From the sequence record NC_031934.1: a DNA stretch of 64,000 bases. The stretch is one strand, 5' to 3'. Origin of the DNA: Escherichia phage MX01. Below the pieces are notes generated by a model. That model did not search any database and had not been told where the DNA came from. It saw nothing but the letters and a program-made list of their open reading frames with translations. A program made the translations under genes and the position numbers. Every line of letters begins with the position of its first letter. Position 1 is the first letter of the stretch. Shown here one piece after another: positions 3,073-38,974 of the stretch.

Positions 3073-4890
3073 TTACGACATCCAGGCCTTACGGAGTTGA
3101 GGGTCATTACCAAGGAGCATTTCGAACTGTTCTTTCCAATCTTCAGGTAATTGAACAACATCAAATTTAGGGTCTTGAATCATTCGACGGTATTCAGCTT
3201 TCTCAAGAGAACCTAGTCCTTTGATATAGCGAATAGAATGTTTTGGTAGAGAGTCCTTAGCTTTGGTATAACTAGGGACATCATAGAACCATTCCTGTTC
3301 TTTACCAACCTGGGCAATAATTACCGGAGTTTTACAGAAACGTACTCGGCCTTGTTCGAACAATTCAGGCCATTGACTAAAGAAGGCTAGCAATGATGGA
3401 TAAATCGAGCCAGTACCATCCACATCGGCATCAGTCATAATAGCAATATTACGATAGTTAGTTTTCTCTGCAGGTTCACCAATAACCAATCCAGTGATTG
3501 CACAGATATCAAATAGTTCCTTGTTCTTCATGATATCTGTTGCTGTCATTCCCCAGGTATTCATAACCTTACCACGTAATGGATAGCCACCTTGAAGGTC
3601 TTTATTACGAACTTCAATGAAAGGACCCATAGCGGAATCACCTTCGGTTAGGAACAGGGTTGTATCGGCATCTTTGCCGTATAAGTTAGCTTTAATATGC
3701 TTATGGACCTTGGCTTTAGAAGCTTTCTTAGCGGCTTTAGTTTCAGCTGCCTTTTCGGCTGCTAATTTACGTGCTAAAGCAGCTTCAACGATAGGCATAA
3801 TCAACCCATCGACCTTAAGAATAGCTGTGGCAATTTTCTTAGCATCAATTTGGATATGGTTACGAATCTCGCCAAATGGAGATGTTAAGCGCTCTTTAGT
3901 CTGTGAATCAAAACGCATGTTGCTCATATCACGAATGAACATCACCATCGTAAGGCATTCTTTAACTCGTGCCTTACTTACTTCGATGCCTTTATATTTC
4001 TTCTTGATGCCTGGCAAGAGATGTTCGCAGATATCATCAAACACACATTCAACATGATGACCACCATTCTTAGTATGAATATTGTTCACATAAGTTAGGT
4101 GACGGAATCCATCCGGAGAAGGAGTAAATGCCATTGAAACATTATCAGTTTCTTGGATTACAAAGTCTTCACCAAATTGCTTAGCATACTTTTTAAAGTT
4201 GCCATCTACTTTTTTACCATTAAAAGTAAATTGAATATCAGGATAAATTACGGCCAGAGTTTGCAATCGGTCTAATGTAATATCCAGATAAATTTGCGAC
4301 AGGCTATTTTCTTCGAAATGGCTAAAGTCCGGAGTGAATATAACAGAAGTACCCTTACCTTTAGATTTCTTAGTAGACCAACCTTTGTTTTCCATTCCGT
4401 TTGAACAGTTGACAGTAATCTCATTCTCACCATCAGAGGTGATGCCTGTGAACAAAACAGAGAAGATATTAGTTAAACTACTACCGACACCATTCATGCC
4501 GCCTGTCTTACGCTCAGTGTCATCTCCAAAGTTACCACCTGCCTTTGGAATAGTCCATGCAGCTACAGGACCTGGAATTTGTTCACCGTTTTGATCGATG
4601 ACCATTGCTTGTGGAATACCACGACCATTATCAGAAACTGAAACCTGGTTATTCTTAATTTGGACATCAATTTTATTTGCGAATTTAAAATTGGTACGAA
4701 TAGCTTCATCGACAGAGTTATCAATGATTTCGTCAATTAATTTAACCAGCCCAGGAACATAGTTTACCTGTGTAAAATTACCAAACAGGAATCGACCGTG
4801 AGCTTCATTAGCACTGGAGCCAATATACATCCCACTACGTTTTTTGATATGTTCAATGTCGGACAGTACTTTAATTTCATTCTTAATCAT
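3073..4890 (-). CDS. 39: DNA topoisomerase II large subunit (GyrB-like ATPase + Toprim; unsplit 39/60 form)
   Basis: 605 aa with GHKL ATPase N-terminus and Toprim region; size fits fused gp39+gp60. Confidence 0.88.
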   Translation of the reverse strand: MIKNEIKVLSDIEHIKKRSGMYIGSSANEAHGRFLFGNFTQVNYVPGLVKLIDEIIDNSVDEAIRTNFKFANKIDVQIKNNQVSVSDNGRGIPQAMVIDQNGEQIPGPVAAWTIPKAGGNFGDDTERKTGGMNGVGSSLTNIFSVLFTGITSDGENEITVNCSNGMENKGWSTKKSKGKGTSVIFTPDFSHFEENSLSQIYLDITLDRLQTLAVIYPDIQFTFNGKKVDGNFKKYAKQFGEDFVIQETDNVSMAFTPSPDGFRHLTYVNNIHTKNGGHHVECVFDDICEHLLPGIKKKYKGIEVSKARVKECLTMVMFIRDMSNMRFDSQTKERLTSPFGEIRNHIQIDAKKIATAILKVDGLIMPIVEAALARKLAAEKAAETKAAKKASKAKVHKHIKANLYGKDADTTLFLTEGDSAMGPFIEVRNKDLQGGYPLRGKVMNTWGMTATDIMKNKELFDICAITGLVIGEPAEKTNYRNIAIMTDADVDGTGSIYPSLLAFFSQWPELFEQGRVRFCKTPVIIAQVGKEQEWFYDVPSYTKAKDSLPKHSIRYIKGLGSLEKAEYRRMIQDPKFDVVQLPEDWKEQFEMLLGNDPQLRKAWMS

Positions 4891-4916
4891 GTTATTTCCT
4901 CATGTAGTAGGAGAAT

Positions 4917-4941
4917 ATTATACCACTCCACTTAAAGCAAT
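4917..4941 (-). promoter_or_regulatory. promoter for gene 39: TGGTATAAT -10 with upstream MotA-box-like ATTGCTTTA
   Basis: MotA-box-like motif 10 nt upstream of TATAAT; middle-type geometry approximate. Confidence 0.4.
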
Positions 4942-4956
4942 AAAGGGCCGAAGCCC
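4933..4956 (-). terminator. rho-independent terminator-like hairpin (GGGC-TTCG-GCCC)
   Basis: Hairpin followed by TTTATTGCTTT downstream of lipoprotein gene. Confidence 0.45.
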
Positions 4957-5217
4957 TTAATCAAATCGAATGGTCGACTTTTTAAAGAATAATCCAGAAC
5001 AAACAGTTCCTTCAACCCTTTTACCTGTCGGACCCACAGCAATAAAGCCTGTACGTTGGAAATCATCTTCAGAACAGCCAAATAGGTTGTATCCTGTGAT
5101 TTGGATTTGTTCGTAGCCATTTGCATCCAATACACGGGTAGCATTATCAGCATCAGTACATCCAACCAATGAAACCGCCAATACTAAAGCTGCAATAGAA
5201 CGATTAATATATTTCAT
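4957..5217 (-). CDS. predicted lipoprotein, 86 aa
   Basis: Signal peptide with lipobox LVGC. Confidence 0.55.
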   Translation of the reverse strand: MKYINRSIAALVLAVSLVGCTDADNATRVLDANGYEQIQITGYNLFGCSEDDFQRTGFIAVGPTGKRVEGTVCSGLFFKKSTIRFD

Positions 5218-5223
5218 AATTTC

Positions 5224-5400
5224 TCACTTAGTCAGCAGGTCGTAAAAACCGCCATTAACATGTTTAGGAGCCGAGACTAACCGAACAGCCAGCCGATGGC
5301 AATCAGGACAAACATCATTATCTCTTTCAGAGATTTTCTTGATTTTTTCGTATTCTTTTGCACAGTCTTCAGATTGGCATTTGTAATCATAAAGTGGCAT
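5224..5400 (-). CDS. zinc-ribbon protein, about 58 aa
   Basis: CxxC...CPDC pair; start moved to ATG (MPLYDYKC) preceded by AAGGAG. Confidence 0.5.
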   Translation of the reverse strand: MPLYDYKCQSEDCAKEYEKIKKISERDNDVCPDCHRLAVRLVSAPKHVNGGFYDLLTK

Positions 5401-5611
5401 TATAAGTCTCCTTCCAGAATTCAGTACCTTCAGCAGTGATTTCACGGAACACTGCATAGATAGGGGTTTTATCACCCTGATTTTCGTATACATAAACCGA
5501 CGATAAATGAGAAAACGTATCAGAATGTTCCTTTTGAACCACGATTAAATCAGGGTTGAACAGAACATCTTCAAATTCTTCACGAGTCGAGTTCATCGTA
5601 ACTTTAGCCAT
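5387..5611 (-). CDS. hypothetical protein, 74 aa
   Basis: ATG start with upstream promoter-like element at 5642-5671. Confidence 0.5.
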   Translation of the reverse strand: MAKVTMNSTREEFEDVLFNPDLIVVQKEHSDTFSHLSSVYVYENQGDKTPIYAVFREITAEGTEFWKETYNATL

Positions 5612-5641
5612 TTTATTTTCCTCTCATTTGTTGATAGGGTA

Positions 5642-5671
5642 ATCTTATCACTACCCTACCATATTGTATAC
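5642..5671 (-). promoter_or_regulatory. early promoter-like element (GTATAC-N18-TAAGAT)
   Basis: Degenerate copy of the recurring cassette. Confidence 0.35.
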
Positions 5672-5684
5672 TGTTTTTTAAACT

Positions 5685-6251
5685 TTATGCAAAATGAATA
5701 TCAGCATACTCAACGATAAAGCTCTCAGGAACAACCTTAAAGGTTCCAAGGAACACGATGTTATAGAGCTTAACGCCTTTTTCAACCCACTGGTCGGTGA
5801 TGTAACCGGACATACTAGTGGTTTCATAAGTCGGACCGTACTTGCACTTGTATTCAAACGGTTTAGGTGAAACGAAAAAGACACCTTTACCTAATTTCCA
5901 TTTGAAATCAACACCAACATGAGATTGGTCAATAGTTTCAACGTCTTGAGCTACTACGCCACGGATATCATTGCTTTCACATACATACCCATCATGGGAT
6001 TCAACTTCTTCAACTACAGGAGCGATGTATCCGGTAAATTCAGTCGATTCCAAGAATTTAGCACGCACATAAGCGAATTGAGTTTCAGTCTGGCCATTTT
6101 TAGGAATGATACGCACTTTTACTTCAGAATTTTCTTCACTGACACCTTCTTTAAGTTGGATGCTAACAACTTCAACTAAACAGCCTGCAGCTTTTGAACG
6201 AGACTTTTTGGATACACGAACAATACCGCCGATATCGGAAATAGTAATCAT
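5685..6251 (-). CDS. hypothetical protein, 188 aa (paralog of next gene by C-terminal motif)
   Basis: C-terminus GYITDQWVEKGVKLYNIVFLGTFKVVP resembles C-terminus of 6325-7080. Confidence 0.55.
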   Translation of the reverse strand: MITISDIGGIVRVSKKSRSKAAGCLVEVVSIQLKEGVSEENSEVKVRIIPKNGQTETQFAYVRAKFLESTEFTGYIAPVVEEVESHDGYVCESNDIRGVVAQDVETIDQSHVGVDFKWKLGKGVFFVSPKPFEYKCKYGPTYETTSMSGYITDQWVEKGVKLYNIVFLGTFKVVPESFIVEYADIHFA

Positions 6252-16271: not shown

Positions 16272-16279
16272 TATAAATA
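16272..16279 (+). promoter_or_regulatory. late promoter TATAAATA, plus strand
   Basis: Exact TATAAATA 22 nt upstream of plus-strand ATG at 16301. Confidence 0.5.
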
Positions 16280-16300
16280 TTAATTTAACAGGAGGATAGC

Positions 16301-16501
16301 ATGGGCAGTATTTTTTACCAAATCTGGAAATTGGCCGAAAAGAAAGACAAGAAAATGATGTTAGGTTTTCTTGCGCTAGACGTATTCCTTTGGAATCTTC
16401 TAGTAGTCCCTGTAGCCGCTAGCCAAGGGATAATTTTACCAGCGGTTACAATGGAACACGTGTTAAGCATAATTGGATTCTTTAGCGGAATTCCTGCCTA
16501 A
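16301..16501 (+). CDS. small hydrophobic (membrane) protein, 66 aa, plus strand
   Basis: Strong AGGAGG SD 5 nt before ATG; TATAAATA late promoter upstream; convergent with gene 61. Confidence 0.5.
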   Translation: MGSIFYQIWKLAEKKDKKMMLGFLALDVFLWNLLVVPVAASQGIILPAVTMEHVLSIIGFFSGIPA

Positions 16502-30470: not shown

Positions 30471-30833
30471 TTAATTACCAATTGTGTACTTAGACATCAG
30501 TTCCCAGTCATTTTTCTGTTTAAAGGAAATGACACGGAAGTTATTGGTGATTTCGAACAGTTCAGATTCATCTACAATATCAATCAGTCCCCAATCCTTA
30601 AGAAGCTGAGCTATGGAATCACGTCGTTGGTAGTCTTCACCATCGATATCGACTTGTCGACCATCCATACGCAACATCTCTTTAAAGTGGACAATATAAT
30701 ATCGACCTTGCTTTTGCAAAATGTGACAGGATTGATATAGTTTCTTTTCTTTATTATTAGCGATACCCATACGAGTTAGGGTCTCTTTTACTTTCAAGAA
30801 GTCTTCAGGTTGTTTCAGAGTAATTTCAATCAT
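30471..30833 (-). CDS. regA: RegA translational repressor
   Basis: 120 aa; near-identical to recalled T4 RegA. Confidence 0.9.
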   Translation of the reverse strand: MIEITLKQPEDFLKVKETLTRMGIANNKEKKLYQSCHILQKQGRYYIVHFKEMLRMDGRQVDIDGEDYQRRDSIAQLLKDWGLIDIVDESELFEITNNFRVISFKQKNDWELMSKYTIGN

Positions 30834-30839
30834 TTTAAT

Positions 30840-31412
30840 TTACCATTCCAATGCTTTCTTTTTCAAGTCTTTTTGTTCTTTAACATTTTTGGTTACGGAT
30901 TTCAGGAACTCGTCTGTAACCAACCCTTTCATCTTCTTAAGCATTGCCGGAAGATGGCCTTTAATTTTATAAGTCTCGAGATAACGATAAGCGTCATCAT
31001 TATTAATTGAATGGTATTTCATCAATAAACGAGTAATAAAAACTACACTAACTTCATCATCATGGGCCTTAGCCCATTTACCAAATCTCTTACCCTTAGG
31101 AACGGCATGCAAAAGATAGTTGAAATGGCTTTGGTCATCAAGTTTCAGACAGTTAACCATTGCAGCTTGCATAATGCAATCTACATGTTGGCTCAAACTA
31201 TTATCAAGCCAAAATTGATTGTAGTTTTCCGACTGAGCCAAGTTACGTTGTTTCTTACCATATGTGATATCGTTCATAATGGCAAACAGTTCGTTTTCAG
31301 CCTTTTCTTTAAATGAATCGGCCAAGGCTTGAATTGCAGCGTCGTTACGTTGTTTCCAAGCAACTTCATGTTCGTTCAGTTCAACGTCATCATCAAAAAG
31401 ACTTATAGCCAT
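30840..31412 (-). CDS. 62: clamp loader small subunit
   Basis: 190 aa; between regA and 44. Confidence 0.8.
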   Translation of the reverse strand: MAISLFDDDVELNEHEVAWKQRNDAAIQALADSFKEKAENELFAIMNDITYGKKQRNLAQSENYNQFWLDNSLSQHVDCIMQAAMVNCLKLDDQSHFNYLLHAVPKGKRFGKWAKAHDDEVSVVFITRLLMKYHSINNDDAYRYLETYKIKGHLPAMLKKMKGLVTDEFLKSVTKNVKEQKDLKKKALEW

Positions 31413-32380
31413 TGGAGCTCCAGAGCAAGTTGGATGAACAGATAAGTCATGTGAATTTCTGGGTTAGCCGCAATACCGTGGTATTGGTTATTTTCACCGA
31501 CAATTTCATACATTCTAACAATGCTTGGTCCAGGCAATTTACCATAGAGTTCGTTAGCCAGTGACATAATAAAGTTGGAATAGTCATTGACATGGCGTGG
31601 AGCTAATGCACGGAGTTCTTTAAAGTTTTTATCTTTCAGTGCAGCCACTACTTCATCGATAGGAGAATTGGTATTCATTACAATACTCAGAATGCCTGTA
31701 TCGATTTTACCACTGGATGAGTAACGGTCTAGTTGGTTAACTGTTTTACGGAAGTCAGGAAAGTTTTGTTTAACTAAGGCAGCAATAACTTTAAGGTCTT
31801 CGACTTCGATATTTTCGTTTTTACAGATTGCTACAGCACGATGAATCATTTCTTTCATCATGGATGTTTGGTCGGCCGGAGTGGCTTCACCAAATTTAAT
31901 AACACGACAACGAGATTGAAGTGGACCGATAATACCATCAATATTGTTTGCTGTAATAATTACAGAACAGTTTGAGGAATAGGCCTCTAAGAACGAACGA
32001 AGGTGGCGTTGAGCTTCAGCAACACCGGCACGGTCGAATTCGTCGATAACAATTACCTTACGCTTACCTTCGATAGATTTAGAAGATGCAAAACGAGTAA
32101 GTTCATTACGAACGAAATCAATACGGCAGTCAGAACCGTTAACAAACAGCATGTCTGAATTTGTATCAGCACACAATGCTTTAGCTACGGTAGTTTTGCC
32201 TGTGCCTGGTGAAGCAGAGACTAGGATAATGTTAGGGATTAGACCCTTATTAACAATGGCTTGGAGGGTTTCTTTATCATGTGCAGGCAGAATACACTCA
32301 GATAAAGTACCTGGACGATATTTCTGTTCCCACATGAAGTCATTTTCATTAATAGTTAAACCATTTACCACTTTACTCAT
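31403..32380 (-). CDS. 44: clamp loader large subunit (AAA+)
   Basis: Walker A SPGTGKTT, SRC motif; start set to ATG with GAGGA SD (track start is TTG). Confidence 0.88.
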   Translation of the reverse strand: MSKVVNGLTINENDFMWEQKYRPGTLSECILPAHDKETLQAIVNKGLIPNIILVSASPGTGKTTVAKALCADTNSDMLFVNGSDCRIDFVRNELTRFASSKSIEGKRKVIVIDEFDRAGVAEAQRHLRSFLEAYSSNCSVIITANNIDGIIGPLQSRCRVIKFGEATPADQTSMMKEMIHRAVAICKNENIEVEDLKVIAALVKQNFPDFRKTVNQLDRYSSSGKIDTGILSIVMNTNSPIDEVVAALKDKNFKELRALAPRHVNDYSNFIMSLANELYGKLPGPSIVRMYEIVGENNQYHGIAANPEIHMTYLFIQLALELQWL

Positions 32381-32939
32381 TATTATTTTCCTCATTAAAA
32401 TGTTTAACAATTTTATTCAATTCGTTTGCAGAATAATTATATCCATAATTTTGTAAAAGCGTACTAAATCTACCCTTTTTAGGCATACCAAGTTCTATCC
32501 AAATCTTACGGAGCTCTTCATAATTCTGCCATATTTCAGAGCGTTGCCATTTAGAGCAATTAAGCTTATGGCTTTCGGAAAATGTTCTTGATTTTCCGGT
32601 CCTGGTGATAGACATCTTACGTTTAGATTCAGCACTGTGGAAATCTACACCACCTGGACCACCGGGAGCTTTATTAACACAACGTGAACCATACTTGGCA
32701 ATACCTTCTTTAACAAGGGCCTCTTCAATAAGTTTGGCTTCTTTAAATGTATCCGTTTTGTGGACAACCTCAATACTAAACTCCCAAACACCAGGAGTTA
32801 TAGCATTTTCTCGCTTGCATTTCTTAACAAATTTACCAGTACCATAATATTCTTCAGGAGTAACACGGTGCCTACCGAAATAATGGTAGACATCCTTAGT
32901 TTTGGTATTTGTTATTGTATTATGATAGCAAATGTACAT
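32373..32939 (-). CDS. GIY-YIG homing endonuclease (Seg-like)
   Basis: N-terminus YICYHNTITNTKTKDVYHYFG fits GIY...YIG module; inserted between 45 and 44; TAATG overlap with gene 45 stop. Confidence 0.65.
   Translation of the reverse strand: MYICYHNTITNTKTKDVYHYFGRHRVTPEEYYGTGKFVKKCKRENAITPGVWEFSIEVVHKTDTFKEAKLIEEALVKEGIAKYGSRCVNKAPGGPGGVDFHSAESKRKMSITRTGKSRTFSESHKLNCSKWQRSEIWQNYEELRKIWIELGMPKKGRFSTLLQNYGYNYSANELNKIVKHFNEENNNE
32373..32939 (-). mobile_element. free-standing GIY-YIG homing-endonuclease insertion between genes 45 and 44
   Basis: Endonuclease ORF precisely fills the 45-44 junction, which is contiguous in T4. Confidence 0.5.
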
Positions 32940-33637
32940 TAGAACGAGTGGCTTGAGCCTGCTTCCATAGCTAGTACGTAAGAAGCTTGTGAACCTTCAA
33001 ACTTAGCTGCGAAACGAGCATCTTGACCTTCACCGCGTGCCCATAACAATACATGGTAATCAGCCGGCATCATTTTCATATTAGTTTTGTTAATAATGAA
33101 TTTGAATTCAGGGCCATCATGGTCTGCAACCACTAAGGAATACAACGGTCGAGTCAATTCTTTATCGTCAACTTGTTTATAACCGTTGATAACGATTTTA
33201 CCATTGTCTGTAGTGATTGCAAATGTATCAATACTCAATCCAGAGGATACACGCATCAGTTGCTGGTAGTCTTCAGCTTTAAGGTCAAAAATAACTTCAG
33301 CGACCGGGAATGGAATCTTTTTGCTTGGGAATGCAATTGTGCTTGGGTCGGCAATAGGCCACTTAATAGTTGAACGTTGGTCTTTAATAATTAAAGTGGT
33401 TTGGTCTTCACTTACCGAAACTTCAGCACTTTCAGATACCAAAGACAGAATACTTAAGAAACCGTTCAGGTCATAGATTGCGGCTTCGATATCAAAGGTA
33501 TCGGATACGGTAGCTTCACCATAACTTGCACCTGTTACAGAACGAGTTAGAATAGTGTTACCAGGTTTAAGCATGATACCTGGATTAATACCGGAGAAGT
33601 TTTTCAGAATGTTCAGAGTTTCTTTAGAGAATTTCAT
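32939..33637 (-). CDS. 45: sliding clamp
   Basis: 232 aa; similarity to recalled T4 gp45 throughout. Confidence 0.9.
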   Translation of the reverse strand: MKFSKETLNILKNFSGINPGIMLKPGNTILTRSVTGASYGEATVSDTFDIEAAIYDLNGFLSILSLVSESAEVSVSEDQTTLIIKDQRSTIKWPIADPSTIAFPSKKIPFPVAEVIFDLKAEDYQQLMRVSSGLSIDTFAITTDNGKIVINGYKQVDDKELTRPLYSLVVADHDGPEFKFIINKTNMKMMPADYHVLLWARGEGQDARFAAKFEGSQASYVLAMEAGSSHSF

Positions 33638-33662
33638 AATGTTTCCTTATCAAGTCAAATTA

Positions 33663-34076
33663 TTAAGCAATAACGATCATTTGTTTACGAATGGATTCAG
33701 GCAGAGATTCAATATACTCTGGAATCTGGGAAGCAACAATAGCACCGGCTTCAAGCAGTTGTTCGTCAAAATCTACGCAATAATCATCTTCGAGACGTTC
33801 AGAACCATCACGGTCGATAACCAGTTTAGCACCTGCGGCCAGTGAATCATTATAGTGGCGACGCATAATTTCTACCCACTTATCGGATACGTCGTTATCA
33901 ATGATACCGTAGAGCATGAACTTAGTTTCTTGTGGAAGAGACTGCAGACGACGTGCAGAGTTGGTATCAATATTCAGTACCCATGATTTACGGATACGGT
34001 TTTGATTATGTGGGTTGGAATCAGTACGGATAGTTTTAACTTGGATATCTTTAACAGTAATAGCGTTAGCAAACAT
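33663..34076 (-). CDS. rpbA: RNA polymerase binding protein RpbA-like (positional)
   Basis: Between 45 and 46; start moved to internal ATG; sequence not verified. Confidence 0.5.
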   Translation of the reverse strand: MFANAITVKDIQVKTIRTDSNPHNQNRIRKSWVLNIDTNSARRLQSLPQETKFMLYGIIDNDVSDKWVEIMRRHYNDSLAAGAKLVIDRDGSERLEDDYCVDFDEQLLEAGAIVASQIPEYIESLPESIRKQMIVIA

Positions 34077-34138
34077 AATATTTTCTCTCATTTGGTTGGT
34101 AAATGTATTATAAATCAATATTTTAAAGCATTTAACGT

Positions 34139-34333
34139 TTAATCGAAGTATTCATAAACGAACCAGGCAGGGTTCCTGTTCGACATGATTCTATCATACT
34201 CTGACTTAAAAGCATTTCGGAGATAATCTTCAGTAACAAGATGTTCGTCACCAGAGAAGTTGTTGACTAAAACATACCGCTTTAGTTCAGGAACGGCCAA
34301 CAAATGCTGGCCTGTTATAAAATTGGAAGCCAT
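34139..34333 (-). CDS. hypothetical protein, 64 aa
   Basis: Small ATG-initiated ORF. Confidence 0.45.
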   Translation of the reverse strand: MASNFITGQHLLAVPELKRYVLVNNFSGDEHLVTEDYLRNAFKSEYDRIMSNRNPAWFVYEYFD

Positions 34334-34339
34334 ATAAAT
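34332..34339 (+). promoter_or_regulatory. late promoter TATAAATA for HNH endonuclease gene
   Basis: Exact TATAAATA about 40 nt upstream of HNH ATG. Confidence 0.5.
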
Positions 34340-34376
34340 ATCTTTATCGGTCGCTGTATCAAATAAGGATTTGATA

Positions 34377-35093
34377 ATGAATTATAAATCAATATACGAA
34401 AAGCTTATTCAACGAGCAGTTAATAGAAATTTAACTACCTATAAAGAACGTCATCACATTATACCACAATGCATGGGTGGAACGGACGACGCTTTAAACT
34501 TGGTAGACTTAACACCTGAAGAACATTACTTGGCTCATCAGTTGTTAGTTAAAATCCATCCAGATAATGCATCGTTAGTCTATGCGGCAAGAATGATGAC
34601 AGTTAGCTCACCAAAAGCTGATAGGTCTAAAAATAAATTATTTGGATGGCTTCGTCGTAAGAATTCAGAAGCCCAAAAGGATAAAGAATTCTCGGAAGAA
34701 ACCAGAAAGAAAATGTCAATTTCCGCTTTAAAAAAGCCTAGAGTTACCTGTCCACACTGCGGTAAAACTGGATTGGTAGGCAATATGAACAGATGGCATT
34801 TCGATAACTGCCCTAAAGGCCCTAATAAAGTAGACCGCTCTATATCTGAAGAGCAAAAATTAAAAATAAAGAAAGGCCTAGAAAACATGGTCCATAAAAT
34901 TGTGGAATGTGAATTCTGTGGCCTTTCAGGAAAATCCTGTGTTATTGCCTCTCATAAAGTTTTTTGTAAGAAAAATCCTAACGGGCGCAAAAAAACAGAA
35001 AAGAAGGTAGAATGCCCTCATTGTGGTAAACAAGGGAATTCCGGTAATATGAATCGTTGGCATTTCGATAACTGTAAAATGAAGCCTCAATAA
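34377..35093 (+). CDS. HNH homing endonuclease with C-terminal zinc-finger repeats
   Basis: HNH motif ERHHIIPQCMGGTDDALNLVDLTPEEHYLAH; two CPHCGK...NMNRWHFDNC repeats; only large plus-strand gene; AAGGA SD; TATAAATA upstream. Confidence 0.8.
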   Translation: MNYKSIYEKLIQRAVNRNLTTYKERHHIIPQCMGGTDDALNLVDLTPEEHYLAHQLLVKIHPDNASLVYAARMMTVSSPKADRSKNKLFGWLRRKNSEAQKDKEFSEETRKKMSISALKKPRVTCPHCGKTGLVGNMNRWHFDNCPKGPNKVDRSISEEQKLKIKKGLENMVHKIVECEFCGLSGKSCVIASHKVFCKKNPNGRKKTEKKVECPHCGKQGNSGNMNRWHFDNCKMKPQ

Positions 35094-35098
35094 GAGGC

Positions 35099-36781
35099 TT
35101 ATTCCATAATTGTAAATCGACCAACCTTTTTCATTTGTAAATGCTGACCATATGCTTGAGGGTCATGGTCCCTGTGGCTGATTATAAAAACATTACTGTC
35201 TTCAAGACTATTAAGAATACTTGCAATCGACTTAACAGCCTCAGCGTCAACTGCTCCATCAAAAACTTCATCCAACACTAATGTACTAATGTGGACTCCA
35301 CTGACTTTTTCAGCAATATCACGCCAGGTAAAAAGTAGTGCGATATCAATACGTGCTTTCTCACCCTGTGAAAATGAAGCATAACTAAAGTCTTCACGTC
35401 CACGTGATTTAATCGTCTCATTGAACTCTTCGTCTAGTGTAAAGACGTAGTCGGCTTCCATAATCTTCAAATAAGAATTTATCTGCTTATTAAAGATAGG
35501 AATGTATTTCTTAATAATGGAACCTTTAATACCGGTATCCTTCAACATTTCTGTCAGAATTCCACGATGGTATTTTTCCATTACCAGGGACGATTTGGTA
35601 GAGACGATTTTATCAAGCTCTGCTTGAAGCGTGGCAATCTCTTCGGCATTACTTACGAACTCAGCAGCGGCTTGGTCTATTAATACTTTAACTTTTTTAG
35701 CTTTCTCTACGGCAGTAATGGCTTGTTGCTTATGAGTAGCTATCTGAGATTTAATAGCCAGCGCTTTATTACGTTGTTCGGTTACTTGGTCCTTAATGAG
35801 CTTGAGTTCTTGGTACTGCTCATTAATCTTATCCAAAGATTTTTGAAGTTCAAAGTTCTTGTCCTTAATTTTAGTAAGGATATTTCCATGCTCTTCTAAT
35901 CCTTGCATACACGTAGGACAACTACCACCGGTTTCGTATAATTTCACGACCTTAGTAAAGGTTGCCATATCATTCTTGATTGCAAACCCTTTATTACTCA
36001 GGTCACTCATAGAGTCGCTAGGGTCATCATCGACAATGACATTGAGTAATTCATCAGTTAGTTTTTCTATATTGCCTTTCGCAGTCCTGGCTTCTTTAAC
36101 GAGCTCGTCATACATTACTTGTAGTCGTGCTGCGTTCTCGCCGGATAATTTACGTTGACGTTCTTCGTTGTCATTATAAATTTTAATCTGTTGGGTAATA
36201 GAATCCTGTTTAACGTCGATTACTTGGATTTGGCTATTAGTCTCACGAATCAAAGATTTGTTCAACTTATCCATATCCGCTAATACAGAAACCTCTAAGA
36301 GGTCTTCGACAAGTTTTCTTCTTGCAGGAGTGGATAGGCCCATAAAAGGGGTATATCCAGCTGTCCCGAGTACGACAATCTGTTTGAAGCTTGTGTAGGA
36401 CATTCCGATAAGCTGTTCAAATTCCGCTTGGAAGTCTTTACTGCTGGCAGATTCATCAAGACGTTCACCGTCACAAGAGATTTCAAAAACGTTGGGTTTT
36501 TGCCCGCGTTTGATGTAGTATTCTTTGCCATCATATTCCATCCACAGTTCGACCAAAAGGTCTTTCTTATTACTTGAGTTAATCAACTGCCCTTTCTTAA
36601 CATCGCGAAAAGGCTTACCAAACAGAGCAAATGTTACGGCTTCAAGGAATGTTGATTTCCCTGCACCATTTTTACCAGTGACTAAGGTCTTTTGGACCTT
36701 ATCAAGTTGGATTGTAATAGGTTGCTGGCCTACCGACATAATATTTTTATACGTTACTTTCTTTAACTTAAAAGTCTTCAT
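35099..36781 (-). CDS. 46: recombination endonuclease subunit (SbcC/Rad50-like)
   Basis: Walker A GKNGAGKST; coiled-coil middle; start set to ATG MKTFKL. Confidence 0.88.
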   Translation of the reverse strand: MKTFKLKKVTYKNIMSVGQQPITIQLDKVQKTLVTGKNGAGKSTFLEAVTFALFGKPFRDVKKGQLINSSNKKDLLVELWMEYDGKEYYIKRGQKPNVFEISCDGERLDESASSKDFQAEFEQLIGMSYTSFKQIVVLGTAGYTPFMGLSTPARRKLVEDLLEVSVLADMDKLNKSLIRETNSQIQVIDVKQDSITQQIKIYNDNEERQRKLSGENAARLQVMYDELVKEARTAKGNIEKLTDELLNVIVDDDPSDSMSDLSNKGFAIKNDMATFTKVVKLYETGGSCPTCMQGLEEHGNILTKIKDKNFELQKSLDKINEQYQELKLIKDQVTEQRNKALAIKSQIATHKQQAITAVEKAKKVKVLIDQAAAEFVSNAEEIATLQAELDKIVSTKSSLVMEKYHRGILTEMLKDTGIKGSIIKKYIPIFNKQINSYLKIMEADYVFTLDEEFNETIKSRGREDFSYASFSQGEKARIDIALLFTWRDIAEKVSGVHISTLVLDEVFDGAVDAEAVKSIASILNSLEDSNVFIISHRDHDPQAYGQHLQMKKVGRFTIME

Positions 36782-37031
36782 CGTTATAAGCATCCTTGAT
36801 GCATGATTCGGCCATATGAATTAATGTTTCTGGAGTATCATCTACCATTACATTAAAGCTAAATTCCACAGCCCAATCAGTAGCAACATAAACTTTAATA
36901 AGCTCGTTGGTATCACGAGTGCTCACAGCTTCAAACCAGAACTTAATTGTACTAGGTTGTCCATCGTCATCAATAACGATACAGTCGTGTTCTAGTTCAA
37001 GGCCTGATTTTTTAAATTCATCTAAAGTCAT
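36768..37031 (-). CDS. hypothetical acidic protein, 87 aa
   Basis: ORF between 47 and 46, overlapping both ends. Confidence 0.5.
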   Translation of the reverse strand: MTLDEFKKSGLELEHDCIVIDDDGQPSTIKFWFEAVSTRDTNELIKVYVATDWAVEFSFNVMVDDTPETLIHMAESCIKDAYNDEDF

Positions 37032-38050
37032 CGTGTAACCTCATTATAAAGTTGTGCAGCCATAGTCTTAAGGGCTTTAACATCGTCTTCAGTGTGGCCA
37101 TCAGGAAGGGCATCGATATAATCATACATCATATCCAAGAGGGACTTAACTTCATCTTCCTCTTCAGAATCATCGATATCAACACTGTTATCTACCTTAG
37201 ACACGATACGTAAAGAGTGGACAACCTTTTCAAGCTCTGATTCGAACTTAGTAAGACCGTCATCAATTTTATCGACTATAACACGAACTGCGATATTTGT
37301 AAAATCTTTGTAATCGATAGTCGCGTTAGGATAATGAATCTTACGGTGCCAACAGGTTTCATTGATGATGAAATCCATCTTATGAGTTTCTGTATCAAAA
37401 ATCCAGAAGCCTCGAGGGTCGTTCTCATCACCGGCAGTCAAGGTCCATGGTGTACCGATATACTTAACGTTTGCTGCATCAGAAATAGTGTGGAAGTGGC
37501 CTGACCAAACCTGCTTATACTTCTTAAGGAAATCAGGTTCTAAACCATGAGATTTCATTCCTTTATAGAAATAGAAACCATTTAATTCCCAGTGACCAAT
37601 ACAAAAATCTGCTGTGGTATTTTTGATATGCTCCATGATATCAGTCGTGTTTTCTTCACACATCCATGGAATCAAATCAATTTCGGTGCCATCAAAGTTA
37701 ACCGTAGTAGGTTTCTCAATAACCTTGATATGCTCATATTTACCCAGAACTTCAGAAGCAGCGTTCGGAGTCAAGGTATTTTTGTAGTGCATATCATGGT
37801 TACCAACAATGGTATACATGGTAATGCCATTTTCTTTAAGCAAATCTGAAATATGTCTGGCAAATTCCATGCACTTATGAGTAATTGCTTTACGAACATC
37901 AAAAATATCACCATACTGAATCCAGACAGTGATACCGTTTGCTTTAGAATAATTGATGGCGTCTTTAATGCCTGCCAATTGAATATTTTGCACCCAAGGG
38001 TCATCGTTCTTAACTCCAAGGTGCCAGTCACCTGTGTTTAGTATTTTCAT
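37028..38050 (-). CDS. 47: recombination endonuclease subunit (Mre11/SbcD-like phosphoesterase)
   Basis: Calcineurin-like motifs GDWHLG, GNHD, GHFH; start set to ATG MKILNTGDWH. Confidence 0.88.
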   Translation of the reverse strand: MKILNTGDWHLGVKNDDPWVQNIQLAGIKDAINYSKANGITVWIQYGDIFDVRKAITHKCMEFARHISDLLKENGITMYTIVGNHDMHYKNTLTPNAASEVLGKYEHIKVIEKPTTVNFDGTEIDLIPWMCEENTTDIMEHIKNTTADFCIGHWELNGFYFYKGMKSHGLEPDFLKKYKQVWSGHFHTISDAANVKYIGTPWTLTAGDENDPRGFWIFDTETHKMDFIINETCWHRKIHYPNATIDYKDFTNIAVRVIVDKIDDGLTKFESELEKVVHSLRIVSKVDNSVDIDDSEEEDEVKSLLDMMYDYIDALPDGHTEDDVKALKTMAAQLYNEVTR

Positions 38051-38190
38051 AAGCCAAGCGCCGTTATCGCAGTGCAAAATAAAATTATTGAAATGAACCC
38101 GTCAGGAGTGGAAAAGAATCCTATCCAACAAGCTCGTGTGAATGTATAGAATGCCATTAATAGCACGACATATCCTAAAAATAATTCCAT
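38047..38190 (-). CDS. small hydrophobic protein, about 47 aa (not in ORF track)
   Basis: ATG with GAGGAG SD; stop overlaps gene 47 start (ATGA). Confidence 0.4.
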   Translation of the reverse strand: MELFLGYVVLLMAFYTFTRACWIGFFSTPDGFISIILFCTAITALGL

Positions 38191-38233
38191 ATGTTCTCCT
38201 CAGTTTAGACTATTGTACTCCGATATACATAAA

Positions 38234-38256
38234 GCAAAAAAGGAGCCTAAGCTCCT
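38234..38256 (-). terminator. rho-independent terminator (GGAGC-TTAG-GCTCC then TTTTTT)
   Basis: Hairpin with T6 run upstream of the gene-47 unit. Confidence 0.55.
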
Positions 38257-38420
38257 TTACCAACTAATACACCATACAGAGGTTCACGTGAAGATTTGAA
38301 CTTAATAGGCTTATATGTAATAGTACCTTCATTTTCTGATTTAATACGAGCGGCTTCAAATTGAAGAATCATCTCGTTTTTGTCAGATTTAATCTTATCA
38401 AAATCCGTCGAATTCGTCAT
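38247..38420 (-). CDS. possible small ORF, about 57 aa
   Basis: ATG with AAGAGG SD; stop lies inside terminator stem; weak. Confidence 0.25.
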   Translation of the reverse strand: MTNSTDFDKIKSDKNEMILQFEAARIKSENEGTITYKPIKFKSSREPLYGVLVGKGA

Positions 38421-38478
38421 TCATATAACCTCTTAAACTTTTTCGTATTCGTCATTCATTAGCCTGCAGTCCATGTTA

Positions 38479-38679
38479 TCATCTCTGCCACCACTTCTTA
38501 AGTTGATGAGAATCTACCCAAACCTTGGCTACAGGCTCAATCTGAAAAATTCCATCGGAATACTGGCCGACCATTTTGTATTCGGTTTCGGACTGCTTAA
38601 TACAGATATTACCGTATGAGCGAAGTCTAAAGGCGGCTCCAATAAGAAGCCGTTTAAAGGGTTTATTTACTAGAGCCAT
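38479..38679 (-). CDS. hypothetical protein, 66 aa
   Basis: Small co-oriented ORF. Confidence 0.4.
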   Translation of the reverse strand: MALVNKPFKRLLIGAAFRLRSYGNICIKQSETEYKMVGQYSDGIFQIEPVAKVWVDSHQLKKWWQR

Positions 38680-38974
38680 TGACGATTTCCCAAATTTGTT
38701 TGCGGGTAGATTCCCACATCAATTGAACAAGTTCATCAGTAACAGGTTGACGGTAAATACCACGTAATTTAATTAAAGCGTACTTATATGCTTCAAAGTT
38801 GTTTTCAAGTACAGCGCCTTGGGCATGGAGATTTAAACGACGGATTTCACGAGCATTCTTCTTAAGAATCTTAGCCGCTTGAGAATTAGCTTCTTTAATA
38901 TTGTGCTCTTCTAAACGTTGCTGGGCTTCTTCAATTTGCTCATCAGTCAATTGAGAAATGTCATGGCTTTGCAT
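38663..38974 (-). CDS. hypothetical protein, 103 aa
   Basis: Co-oriented ORF. Confidence 0.5.
   Translation of the reverse strand: MQSHDISQLTDEQIEEAQQRLEEHNIKEANSQAAKILKKNAREIRRLNLHAQGAVLENNFEAYKYALIKLRGIYRQPVTDELVQLMWESTRKQIWEIVNGSSK

What the first reader, a model, noticed from the sequence alone, without database searches (positions are those of the whole stretch)
34332..35093. HNH endonuclease on the opposite strand with its own late promoter
This is the only sizeable plus-strand gene. It carries a canonical HNH motif and two zinc-finger repeats (CPHCGK...NMNRWHFDNC), is preceded by an exact TATAAATA late promoter and an SD, and sits between rpbA-like/45.2 and gene 46. This is the layout of a mobile, late-expressed homing endonuclease.
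Basis: partly seen in the sequence, partly recalled or inferred. Interest (0 to 1): 0.45.

Follow-up and report, generated by a model that had tools for sequence, protein, structure and literature searches.

The report
Mob-like HNH homing endonuclease cassette
This is an intact, selfish "homing" nuclease gene of a known phage family, sitting backwards between two replication/recombination genes of a T4-like coliphage; it travels between phages together with a rewritten end of the neighbouring gene 46, which is ordinary in kind but makes its DNA target easy to test.

Summary
Window 34377-35093 (+) is an intact 238-aa ORF, between 45.2 and gene 46 of a Dhakavirus (T4-like) phage. It follows an exact TATAAATA (34333-34340) and an AAGGA Shine-Dalgarno.

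Its N-terminal ~115 aa are 46-48% identical to T4 MobB and MobE (E about 1e-30). They carry the HNH residues H27, N41, H50 and H54. The C-terminal half has three predicted beta-beta-alpha C2HC zinc fingers, not two.

The gene is a mobile cassette. A 775-bp insert (34324-35098) is present in six database records and absent from most Dhakaviruses, where the gene 46 stop and the 45.2 start overlap (ATGA).

The insert is always linked to a sharply bounded, mostly synonymous recoding of the last 71 codons of gene 46 (35099-35311). That block is 70-78% identical to endonuclease-free alleles, while the next 500 nt are 94-99% identical.

Phage IME281 shares only 34290-35425 with the window at ~99%, inside 88-92% flanks. 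This points to recent lateral transfer.

The same antisense layout occurs in Mosigvirus, Tequatrovirus, Pseudotevenvirus and Klebsiella phages.

Verdict: a new, uncharacterised member of the free-standing Mob HNH homing endonucleases. It is ordinary in kind, with a testable target prediction in the 3' end of gene 46.

The parts
34324..35098 (+). The inserted cassette proper: 775 bp, replacing 3 bp ('CAC') of the endonuclease-free site.
   Evidence: Junction alignments with IME08 (empty) and KIT01 (filled). Empty sites in IME08, ABTNLsp5, QL01, JS98 and VR5 have the gene 46 stop and the 45.2 start overlapping by 4 nt.
34333..34340 (+). TATAAATA, a T4-type late (gp55) promoter motif. The predicted transcription start is about 34346. 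Its first T is also the last base of the 45.2 start codon on the other strand.
   Evidence: The position of the motif at -13 to -6 is from PMC1524935. An exact motif lies 41-53 nt upstream of homologues in KIT01, G2469 and fFiEco06; Lw1 and Kiwi keep only a TAAATA core.
34346..34376 (+). Predicted 31-nt leader with SD AAGGA (34365-34369). An 8-bp inverted repeat TATCAAAT/ATTTGATA (34357-34376) places the SD in the loop.
   Evidence: Sequence. The fold is not better than shuffles (z = 0.04), so the hairpin is unproven.
34377..35093 (+). Mob-like HNH endonuclease ORF, 238 aa (stop TAA 35091-35093).
   Evidence: phrog_655 homing endonuclease E 7.7e-69. 48% identity to T4 MobB (E 6e-30) and 46% to MobE (E 5e-31) over about 120 aa. 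AlphaFold2 model with mean pLDDT 93.3.
34377..34601 (+). HNH beta-beta-alpha-metal nuclease domain (residues 1-75). Candidate catalytic and metal residues are H27, N41, H50 and H54.
   Evidence: E24, H26, H27, P30, G35, N41, H50 and H54 are invariant in 54 homologues. The profile matches the HNH cores of McrA (E 4.3e-4), the group II intron maturase En domain (0.011) and Cas8-HNH (0.013). Strands 24-27 and 42-45 plus helix 47-60 in the model.
34749..34811 (+). Zinc finger 1, C-x2-C-x12-H-x3-C (residues 125-145).
   Evidence: Beta-beta-alpha element 122-144 in the model.
34908..34967 (+). Zinc finger 2, C-x2-C-x11-H-x3-C (residues 178-197).
   Evidence: Beta-beta-alpha element 175-196 in the model.
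35013..35075 (+). Zinc finger 3, C-x2-C-x12-H-x3-C (residues 213-233). Its ligands are invariant in the family.
   Evidence: C213, C216, H229 and C233 are invariant in 54 homologues. Beta-beta-alpha element 210-232 in the model. The same finger ends the seg-like endonuclease at this site in UGJNEcP3.
35082..35100 (.). Perfect 7-bp hairpin AAGCCTC-aataa-GAGGCTT. The endonuclease stop codon is in the loop and the 3' arm overlaps the gene 46 stop. It may act as a two-way transcription stop between the convergent genes.
   Evidence: dG -11.7 (+) and -14.2 (-) kcal/mol, z -2.7 and -3.3. Conserved in Mosigvirus G2469. Not called by the terminator scan, because no T-run follows.
35099..35311 (-). Endonuclease-linked, recoded last 71 codons of gene 46 (Walker B LVLDEVFDG and H-loop FIISHR of the Rad50/SbcC-like gp46). 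This is the probable co-converted and target-immune segment.
   Evidence: 97-99.7% identity among endonuclease-positive phages and 70-78% to endonuclease-negative ones, returning abruptly to 100% from about 35340. 34 of 59 same-amino-acid codons differ here, against 9 of 125 in the preceding 130 codons.
34139..34333 (-). Gene 45.2. Its start codon and second codon (ATG GCT, 34328-34333) are supplied by the cassette.
   Evidence: Endonuclease-positive alleles in three genera all begin M-A- or (GTG)-A-.

Best explanation
The feature is a functional, free-standing homing endonuclease gene of the T4 'Mob' (HNH) family. It is carried as a cassette of about 1 kb in the 45.2/46 junction of a Dhakavirus.

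Proposed mechanism:

1. Late in infection, gp55-RNA polymerase starts at about 34346 from TATAAATA. It makes a short mRNA antisense to the surrounding early genes, which is probably stopped by the hairpin at 35082-35100.
2. The 238-aa product has an N-terminal HNH nuclease head, a helical linker with a NUMOD3-like helix (SEETRKKMS), and three C2HC beta-beta-alpha zinc fingers that bind DNA.
3. In a mixed infection with an endonuclease-free relative, the protein nicks or cuts that genome. The most likely target is the last ~215 bp of gene 46.
4. Its own genome is protected because that segment is recoded at about a quarter of its positions.
5. Recombinational repair from the endonuclease-positive genome copies the gene, the new 45.2 start and the recoded gene 46 end into the recipient.

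Shown here: family membership, intactness with mostly synonymous differences between copies (suggesting purifying selection), the precise insertion polymorphism, strict linkage to the recoded gene 46 block, and a transferred 34290-35425 tract in IME281.

Inferred: late timing, nuclease activity, nick versus double-strand break, and the position of the target.
For: Family: phrog_655 E 7.7e-69. The N-terminal region is 46-48% identical to T4 MobE and MobB. HNH residues are invariant in 54 homologues. The profile hits solved HNH cores. The AlphaFold2 model has pLDDT 93.3, with one beta-beta-alpha nuclease core and three beta-beta-alpha fingers.

Mobility:
- The 775-bp insert is present at 98% identity or more in 6 records: KIT01, Bp7 (two records), IME281 (two records) and 04086. 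It is absent from most Dhakaviruses.
- The gene 46 allele linked to it is found at 95% or more in exactly those 6 records, out of 1176 with a match.
- IME281 matches the window at 98.9% over 34290-35425, but at about 88% to the left and 92% to the right.

Function retained: all six copies examined (the window and five database genomes) are intact. Differences are mostly synonymous, for example KIT01 11 nt / 1 aa and IME281 12 nt / 2 aa.

Generality:
- The same antisense position, with conserved cassette ends, is found in Mosigvirus, Tequatrovirus, Pseudotevenvirus and a Klebsiella phage.
- Tequatrovirus fFiEco06 (positive) versus T2 (negative) shows the same abrupt divergence over the last ~200 nt of gene 46.

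Precedent: MobE-dependent nicking of T2 nrdB, with co-conversion and polymorphic immunity (PMC2790892).
Against: No activity or expression data exist.

The TATAAATA count in the window is at chance level.

In Mosigvirus, endonuclease-positive G2469 and endonuclease-negative RB69 differ only in the last ~12 nt of gene 46. The recoded block is therefore not a universal companion of the gene. The target could lie at the junction itself rather than inside gene 46.

No donor lineage for the recoded block was found; the nearest non-carrier is 79% identical.
Confidence: 0.8

Rival explanations
1. It is the same homing endonuclease, but its recognition and cleavage site is the 45.2/46 junction itself, which the insertion destroys. 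On this reading the recoded gene 46 block is only hitch-hiking donor DNA from an unsampled lineage, not an immunity determinant.
For: The cassette replaces the junction or spacer at the homologous position in three genera. Mosigvirus G2469 (positive) and RB69 (negative) have nearly identical gene 46 ends, apart from the last ~12 nt. The recoded block is at ordinary between-genus divergence, not beyond saturation.
Against: Characterised free-standing T4 endonucleases cut at a distance from their insertion site; MobE nicks within nrdB. Divergent blocks begin within ~25 nt of each other in Dhakavirus and Tequatrovirus, just upstream of the Walker B codons. On the 45.2 side there is no divergent block at all. 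This asymmetry is what a break on the gene 46 side would produce.
Confidence: 0.3
2. It is a resident, no longer mobile (domesticated or decaying) endonuclease gene. The present distribution would then reflect ordinary recombination between phages rather than endonuclease-driven homing.
For: Some T4 mob genes are defective: mobA and I-TevIII are annotated so. Nuclease activity is untested here.
Against: All six copies examined (the window and five database genomes) are full length, and their substitutions are mostly synonymous. Catalytic residues are invariant. The IME281 tract coincides with the cassette. Linkage with the gene 46 allele is perfect in the database.
Confidence: 0.1
3. It is primarily a phage-versus-phage exclusion or regulatory protein. 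For example, it could be a zinc-finger repressor of the 45.2/rpbA/45 or gene 46 transcripts, or its antisense RNA could be the functional product. The HNH domain would then be secondary.
For: It is antisense to gene 46 and convergent with it. The promoter overlaps the 45.2 start codon. T4 intron endonucleases also act as autorepressors (PMC2988022).
Against: The HNH residues are invariant across distant homologues. Synonymous-biased change shows that the protein sequence, not just the RNA, is conserved. No operator-like repeat was identified.
Confidence: 0.05

Closest known systems
T4 MobE (free-standing HNH endonuclease between nrdA and nrdB)
   Same: The N-terminal HNH domain is 46% identical (E 5e-31). 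Both are free-standing and intergenic. MobE's target lies in the neighbouring conserved gene, and self-immunity comes from nucleotide polymorphisms with co-conversion of flanks (PMC2790892).
   Different: T4 MobE is 141 aa and has none of the three zinc fingers. It has no promoter of its own and is co-oriented with its neighbours. The gene here is antisense and has its own late-promoter motif. The target gene is gene 46 rather than nrdB, and that is only inferred.
T4 MobB
   Same: It is the closest T4 paralogue over the first ~120 aa (48% identity, E 6e-30). Per the review it has its own upstream promoter.
   Different: MobB has a different C-terminal domain with no C2HC fingers. It sits at another locus (the a-gt region) and is co-oriented with its neighbours.
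T4 SegD
   Same: SegD is the only T4 homing endonuclease gene oriented against its neighbours (PMC2988022).
   Different: SegD is a GIY-YIG enzyme, has no identifiable promoter and is thought to be barely expressed. The gene here has an exact, conserved late-promoter motif.
Intronless homing by SegG/gene 32, SegF/gene 56 and SegB (T4)
   Same: These are free-standing endonucleases that cut a neighbouring conserved gene in a related phage and drag flanking sequence along (reviewed in PMC2988022; SegB in PMC2330249).
   Different: They have GIY-YIG catalytic domains. The present case is supported only by comparative sequence patterns.
I-HmuI and I-TevIII (intron-encoded HNH endonucleases)
   Same: Two-part design: an HNH head plus an extended DNA-binding region. 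I-HmuI nicks one strand. That I-TevIII carries zinc fingers is my own recollection and was not checked here.
   Different: Those are intron-encoded. No significant sequence or fold match to I-HmuI was obtained.
Seg-like GIY-YIG endonuclease at the same site in UGJNEcP3, UGJNEcP4 and UP19
   Same: It occupies the same 45.2/46 junction. It is linked to its own diverged gene 46 3' allele. It ends with the same C2HC finger: 46% identity to the window's finger 3 and 67% to FB's.
   Different: The catalytic domain is different: TIGR01453 E 1.3e-8, phrog_314 E 2.7e-50, with sub-threshold GIY-YIG Pfam hits. It is on the same strand as its neighbours and has one finger, not three.

Membership tests
HNH (beta-beta-alpha-metal) nuclease superfamily | The His ... 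Asn ... His motif on a beta-hairpin followed by a helix. | tested here: met
   The motif ERHHIIPQCMGGTDDALNLVDLTPEEHYLAH is present. H26, H27, N41, H50 and H54 are invariant in 54 homologues. The profile aligns to the HNH core of McrA (E 4.3e-4), the group II maturase En domain (0.011) and Cas8-HNH (0.013). The model has strands 24-27 and 42-45 and helix 47-60. The Pfam HNH models are below threshold.
HNH (beta-beta-alpha-metal) nuclease superfamily | Fold match to a solved HNH nuclease. | tested here: inconclusive
T4 Mob family of free-standing HNH endonucleases | A conserved N-terminal Mob-type HNH domain (MNY..IY...HHIIP..GG.DD..NLV.LT..EH..AH) with a protein-specific C-terminal domain. | tested here: met
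   Alignment with T4 MobB, C, D and E gives 29-44% overall identity to the window protein across these four, with 24 invariant columns in the full eight-sequence alignment (which also holds three cross-genus homologues), all in the first 70 residues. BLASTP E 6e-30 to MobB and 5e-31 to MobE. The C-terminal domain differs from all four. The definition is from PMC2790892.
Free-standing homing endonuclease gene (functional class) | It lies between genes that are adjacent in relatives, with presence/absence polymorphism at a precise site. | tested here: met
   a 775-bp insert against an ATGA-overlapped 46/45.2 junction.
Free-standing homing endonuclease gene (functional class) | Evidence of lateral spread with co-conversion of flanking DNA. 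| tested here: met
   IME281 shares a tract at 34290-35425 at 98.9%, within 88-92% flanks. A recoded gene 46 block is strictly linked to the gene. The same pattern is seen in Tequatrovirus.
Free-standing homing endonuclease gene (functional class) | Site-specific nicking or cleavage of the endonuclease-free allele, and super-Mendelian inheritance. | not testable with these tools
   This needs phage crosses and break mapping.
T4-type late (gp55) promoter | TATAAATA at -13 to -6, upstream of the gene. | tested here: met
   An exact motif at 34333-34340, 36 nt before the ATG. An exact motif is kept in Mosigvirus and Tequatrovirus homologues, and a TAAATA core in Lw1 and Kiwi. The consensus is from PMC1524935. 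The abundance of the 8-mer is at chance level.
T4-type late (gp55) promoter | Late, gp55/gp33/gp45-dependent transcription start. | not testable with these tools
   No transcript data are available.
Classical-type beta-beta-alpha zinc finger (C2HC ligand set) | C-x2-C on a beta-hairpin and H-x3-C at the end of a helix, with a spacing of 11-12 residues. | tested here: met
   There are three units, with strands and helix at 122-144, 175-196 and 210-232. The best Foldseek hits are zinc-finger arrays (TRAF6, CTCF), but they are not significant. Zinc binding and DNA reading are untested.

The most novel reading that the evidence does not exclude
The 45.2/46 junction of T4-like phages may be a multi-allelic battleground. 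At least four endonuclease states occur there:
- the HNH type in this window;
- the chimeric HNH of phage FB;
- a third HNH type in DK-13, P479 and PSD2001;
- a GIY-YIG seg-like gene on the other strand in UGJNEcP3.

Each of the three states examined here (the DK-13/P479/PSD2001 allele was not examined) is tied to its own recoded version of the Walker B / H-loop coding end of gene 46. That gene encodes the Rad50-like nuclease subunit needed for the very repair that homing exploits.

On this reading the enzymes are natural 'zinc-finger nucleases'. Interchangeable HNH or GIY-YIG heads would be fused to classical-type C2HC fingers that read gene 46 DNA. The recoded block would be the immunity determinant that travels with each endonuclease.
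Probability: 0.3. Interest if true: 0.5.

Novelty: new member of a known kind. Interest (0 to 1): 0.33.

Why it matters
Free-standing endonucleases shape which markers survive when T4-like phages co-infect a cell, and they are thought to set the boundaries of genetic exchange between phages. Very few Mob enzymes have a known target. MobE is the only one with a mapped nick, and it could not be purified.

This lineage offers an unusually clean natural experiment:
- several intact variants;
- a sharply bounded recoded block of 213 nt that narrows the target search to one small piece of an essential gene;
- matched endonuclease-free relatives such as JS98 and IME08 that are available for crosses.

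The three-finger C2HC array fused to an HNH head would also be of interest as a natural modular DNA-targeting nuclease, if the fingers turn out to read sequence. For annotation, it shows that the real mobile unit includes the start of 45.2 and the end of gene 46, not just the ORF.

Tried and rejected
1. Single-sequence search of PDB sequences found nothing relevant. Only the family profile reached HNH cores.

3. A Nei-Gojobori-style estimate gave pS of about 0.9 for the recoded gene 46 block, which would have implied divergence beyond saturation. A direct count of differing codons among identical amino acids gave 0.58. That is the same as ordinary between-genus comparisons (0.42-0.59). The 'hyper-recoding' idea is therefore rejected as an artefact.

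4. The 5' leader hairpin that puts the SD in its loop is no more stable than shuffled sequence. I make no claim of translational control.

5. A search for MotA-type middle promoters, or sigma-70-like promoters, inside the cassette that could drive 45.2/rpbA/45 found none.

6. A search for a donor of the recoded gene 46 block found no record above 79% identity apart from the carriers.

7. A terminase-associated HNH role was considered and rejected. The gene sits in the replication/recombination cluster and belongs to the Mob family.

8. My recollection that RB49-type late promoters read CTAAATA could not be confirmed. The paper found assigns CTAAATA to Aeh1, and says only that the -13 T is poorly conserved in RB49.
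Full report
**1. What is in the sequence**

The window is an early-gene region of a T4-like phage, read on the strand opposite to its genes. On the minus strand, reading along the plus strand, lie genes 62, 44, 45, rpbA, 45.2, 46, 46.2 and 47.

The closest database genomes are Dhakaviruses: KIT01, Bp7 and 04086 at 97.5-97.7% over 33600-35900.

On the plus strand, the ORF listing gives an ORF at 34371-35093. The likely start is ATG 34377, which gives 238 aa. It is preceded by AAGGA at 34365-34369 and by an exact TATAAATA at 34333-34340.

**2. Is it more than chance?**

The 8-mer TATAAATA occurs 7 times in the window against 6.6 expected. Its mere presence therefore proves nothing.

Two further observations do count:

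- Five of the seven copies lie 20-45 nt upstream of a Shine-Dalgarno plus ATG.
- An exact TATAAATA is kept 41-53 nt upstream of the homologous gene in Mosigvirus G2469 and Tequatrovirus fFiEco06. The leaders there are only 64-84% identical to the window's.
- The Pseudotevenvirus Lw1 and the Klebsiella phage Kiwi keep a TAAATA core at the same place.

T4 late promoters are TATAAATA at -13 to -6 (PMC1524935). That predicts a start near 34346 and a 31-nt leader.

Among ORFs of at least 110 aa, this is the only plus-strand ORF that is not inside a longer minus-strand ORF or without support. A 66-aa plus-strand gene at 16301-16501 also has a TATAAATA and a strong SD, and it matches phrog_2024.

**3. 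The protein**

Family assignment:

- PHROG 655 ('homing endonuclease') matches at E 7.7e-69.
- Pfam and NCBIfam give nothing above threshold.
- Direct comparison with T4 proteins settles the family. The first ~120 residues are 48% identical to MobB (E 6e-30) and 46% identical to MobE (E 5e-31).
- In the eight-sequence alignment (T4 MobB, C, D, E and three cross-genus homologues), all 24 invariant columns lie in the first 70 residues, including H26, H27, N41, H50 and H54.

HNH support:

- Across 54 database homologues, E24, H26, H27, P30, G35, N41, H50 and H54 are invariant.
- A profile of these sequences aligns to the HNH cores of McrA (E 4.3e-4), the group II intron maturase (0.011) and Cas8-HNH (0.013).

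Predicted structure:

- The AlphaFold2 model is confident (mean pLDDT 93.3).
- It shows a beta-beta-alpha nuclease core at 24-60.
- It shows a helical linker that includes the NUMOD3-like SEETRKKMS.
- It shows three beta-beta-alpha units at 122-144, 175-196 and 210-232.
- Each unit carries C-x2-C on the hairpin and H-x3-C at the helix end.
- T4 MobB-E lack these fingers.

**4. It is an insertion with a precise empty site**

In IME08, ABTNLsp5, QL01, JS98 and VR5, the gene 46 stop and the 45.2 start overlap by 4 nt (ATGA).

Junction alignments show that window 34324-35098 (775 bp) replaces 3 bp of that site.

The insert brings four things:

- a new start and second codon for 45.2 (ATG GCT);
- the promoter, which overlaps that start codon;
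- the ORF;
- a perfect 7-bp hairpin at 35082-35100, whose loop holds the endonuclease stop and whose 3' arm overlaps the gene 46 stop.

The hairpin folds better than shuffled sequence on both strands (z -2.7 and -3.3). It is conserved in G2469.

The insert is found at 98% identity or more in six records and is missing from most other Dhakavirus records.

**5. The mobile unit is larger than the ORF**

A MAFFT alignment of window 30600-38900 with eleven Dhakavirus loci gives the following identities for gene 46:

| Segment of gene 46 | Endonuclease-positive phages | Endonuclease-free phages |
|---|---|---|
| Last ~300 nt | 97-99.7% | 76-79% |
| Next 500 nt | 94-98% | 94-99% |

The divergent run is 35099-35311, with identity back at 100% from about 35340. 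It is mostly synonymous:

- 34 of 59 codons for identical amino acids differ in this block.
- Only 9 of 125 differ in the preceding 130 codons.
- There are 10 amino-acid changes in the block.

This is ordinary between-genus divergence. It is not 'beyond saturation', as an initial estimate had suggested.

The block encodes the Walker B and H-loop motifs of the Rad50/SbcC-like gp46.

The allele is found at 95% identity or more only in the six records that carry the endonuclease, out of 1176 records with a match.

On the 45.2 side there is no such block. The endonuclease-free ABTNLsp5 is 98.4% identical there.

**6. Evidence of recent transfer and of function**

IME281 differs from the window at 83 positions in 33600-34289 (about 88% identity) and at 62 positions in 35426-36200 (about 92%). 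It differs at only 13 positions in 34290-35425 (98.9%). The shared tract coincides with the cassette plus the recoded gene 46 end.

All six copies examined (the window and five database genomes) are intact. Their differences from the window are mostly synonymous:

| Phage | nt differences | aa differences |
|---|---|---|
| KIT01 | 11 | 1 |
| IME281 | 12 | 2 |
| 04086 | 15 | 4 |
| Bp7 | 9 | 4 |

This suggests purifying selection on the protein.

**7. The same design elsewhere, and a crowded site**

Full-length homologues lie in the same place and orientation. They are antisense, between 45.2 and 46, and convergent with 46:

| Phage | Genus or host | Amino-acid identity |
|---|---|---|
| G2469 | Mosigvirus | 68% |
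| fFiEco06 | Tequatrovirus | 64% |
| Lw1 | Pseudotevenvirus | 47% |
| Kiwi | Klebsiella phage | 46% |

Lw1's copy is annotated 'putative MobE-like endonuclease'.

In each genus the cassette replaces the 45.2-46 spacer, and 45.2 then begins M-A.

Comparison of carriers and non-carriers within a genus:

- fFiEco06 versus T2 is 98-100% identical through gene 46 until ~200 nt before the stop. It then falls to 62-72%. That boundary is within ~25 nt of the Dhakavirus boundary.
- G2469 versus RB69 differs only in the last ~12 nt.

Other variants within Dhakavirus:

- Phage FB carries a chimera. The first 152 codons are type A (17 nt and 4 aa differences). Fingers 2-3 (62% nt identity) and the gene 46 end (72%) are of another type, with the breakpoint near 34832.
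- DK-13, P479 and PSD2001 carry yet another variant.
- UGJNEcP3, UGJNEcP4 and UP19 carry a seg-like endonuclease on the minus strand at the same junction. It matches TIGR01453 (E 1.3e-8) and phrog_314 (E 2.7e-50), and has a significant NUMOD3 hit. It is linked to a gene 46 end related to FB's.
- That seg-like protein ends in the same C2HC finger: 67% identical to FB's finger 3 and 46% to the window's.

Full-length relatives with fingers also sit at other loci, such as beside nrdA or the head-tail adaptor gene. The finger may therefore be a generic DNA-binding module rather than a reader specific to this locus.

**8. Mechanism**

The best-supported account is intronless homing, as shown for T4 MobE. 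There, an HNH-dependent strand-specific nick in T2 nrdB is followed by co-conversion of flanks, and polymorphisms protect the carrier genome (PMC2790892).

Applied here:

1. The protein is expressed late from its own promoter.
2. It binds DNA through its fingers.
3. It nicks or cuts endonuclease-free genomes.
4. Recombinational repair from the carrier genome copies the cassette.

Two observations favour a break site within the last ~215 bp of gene 46. The divergence is asymmetric, present on the gene 46 side only. And the block boundary falls at a similar place in two genera.

The Mosigvirus pair keeps open the alternative that the junction itself is the target. I put this at about 55:30, with the remainder for non-mobile or other roles.

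Expression timing, nuclease activity, nick versus double-strand break, and the target position are all inferences.

**9. Comparison with what is known, and novelty**

By the tests above the gene is a member of the Mob family of free-standing HNH endonucleases. Relatives are already annotated as such.

It differs from the T4 paradigm in three ways:

- In T4, all homing endonuclease genes except segD are co-oriented with their neighbours. segD has no promoter, and most mob genes have none of their own (PMC2988022). This lineage is antisense and has a conserved late-promoter motif.
- It has a three-finger C2HC array that T4 MobB-E lack.
- It comes with a well-defined recoded block of an essential neighbouring gene.

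I found no paper describing this lineage or its target.

It is therefore a new, uncharacterised member of a known kind. It is interesting mainly because it makes the target and immunity question directly testable. It would not surprise a specialist.

Noticed in passing
window 32373-32939 (-): A second endonuclease-like ORF (188 aa) lies between genes 44 and 45. It matches phrog_314 'homing endonuclease' (E 8.5e-16) and has a weak NUMOD3 hit. It is distantly similar to the seg-like gene of UGJNEcP3 (E 2e-4), and its N-terminus looks like a degenerate GIY-YIG. It is 98% identical in LQ5 and SHP1, which both lack the HNH cassette, and 82% in Bp7 and PSD2002. It is absent from KIT01, IME281 and JS98. 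The two insertions therefore assort independently, and the window phage is a mosaic not present in the database.
   Followed up: partly
window 16272-16501 (+): This is the only other plus-strand TATAAATA (16272-16279). It is followed by AGGAGG and a 66-aa ORF (16301-16501) that matches phrog_2024, of unknown function (E 4.8e-28). It is a small, probably late, antisense gene within the early region.
   Followed up: partly
L010 (UGJNEcP3) 3724-4407 (-); also UGJNEcP4 and UP19: A GIY-YIG/seg-like endonuclease occupies the same 45.2/46 junction on the other strand. It ends with the same C2HC finger (KCPYCDKIGSNNIMKRWHFDNCKLK) as the HNH proteins. This suggests that nuclease heads have been swapped on a shared DNA-binding module.
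   Followed up: partly
L009 (vB_EcoM_FB) 3779-4880: A chimeric endonuclease. The first 152 codons are of the window's type (17 nt and 4 aa differences; HEG-N 96.5% nt identity). Fingers 2-3 and the adjacent ~280 nt of gene 46 are of another type (62% and 72% identity). The breakpoint is near window 34832, between fingers 1 and 2.
   Followed up: partly
L007 (Bp7) 4678-6178, equivalent to window 35257-35261 and 35295: Gene 46 of Bp7 is annotated in two pieces. The alignment shows 1-2 nt gaps inside the recoded block. These are probably sequencing errors in that record. The window's gene 46 is intact at 564 aa.
   Followed up: no
window 34328-34333 and the empty sites in L012-L016: In endonuclease-free Dhakaviruses, the gene 46 stop and the 45.2 start overlap (ATGA), which suggests translational coupling. 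The cassette breaks this and gives 45.2 a new ATG GCT start. In this lineage the upstream SD is only weak (AAAGA), whereas the Mosigvirus and Tequatrovirus cassettes keep GGAG or GGAGG. How 45.2/rpbA are expressed downstream of the antisense insert is unclear; no internal promoter was found.
   Followed up: partly
window 33600-35900 and 32300-33000: About 135 Klebsiella phage records match some short part of these queries at 95-99% identity or more. These are presumably short, highly conserved stretches of genes 44, 45 or 46. Their position and length were not examined.
   Followed up: no
window 37028-38900: Mosaicism continues to the right. Gene 47 is only 85% identical to KIT01 and Bp7 but 92-94% identical to other Dhakaviruses. 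The region beyond 38078 aligns poorly with KIT01, QL01 and IME08, at about 50% over partial lengths.
   Followed up: no
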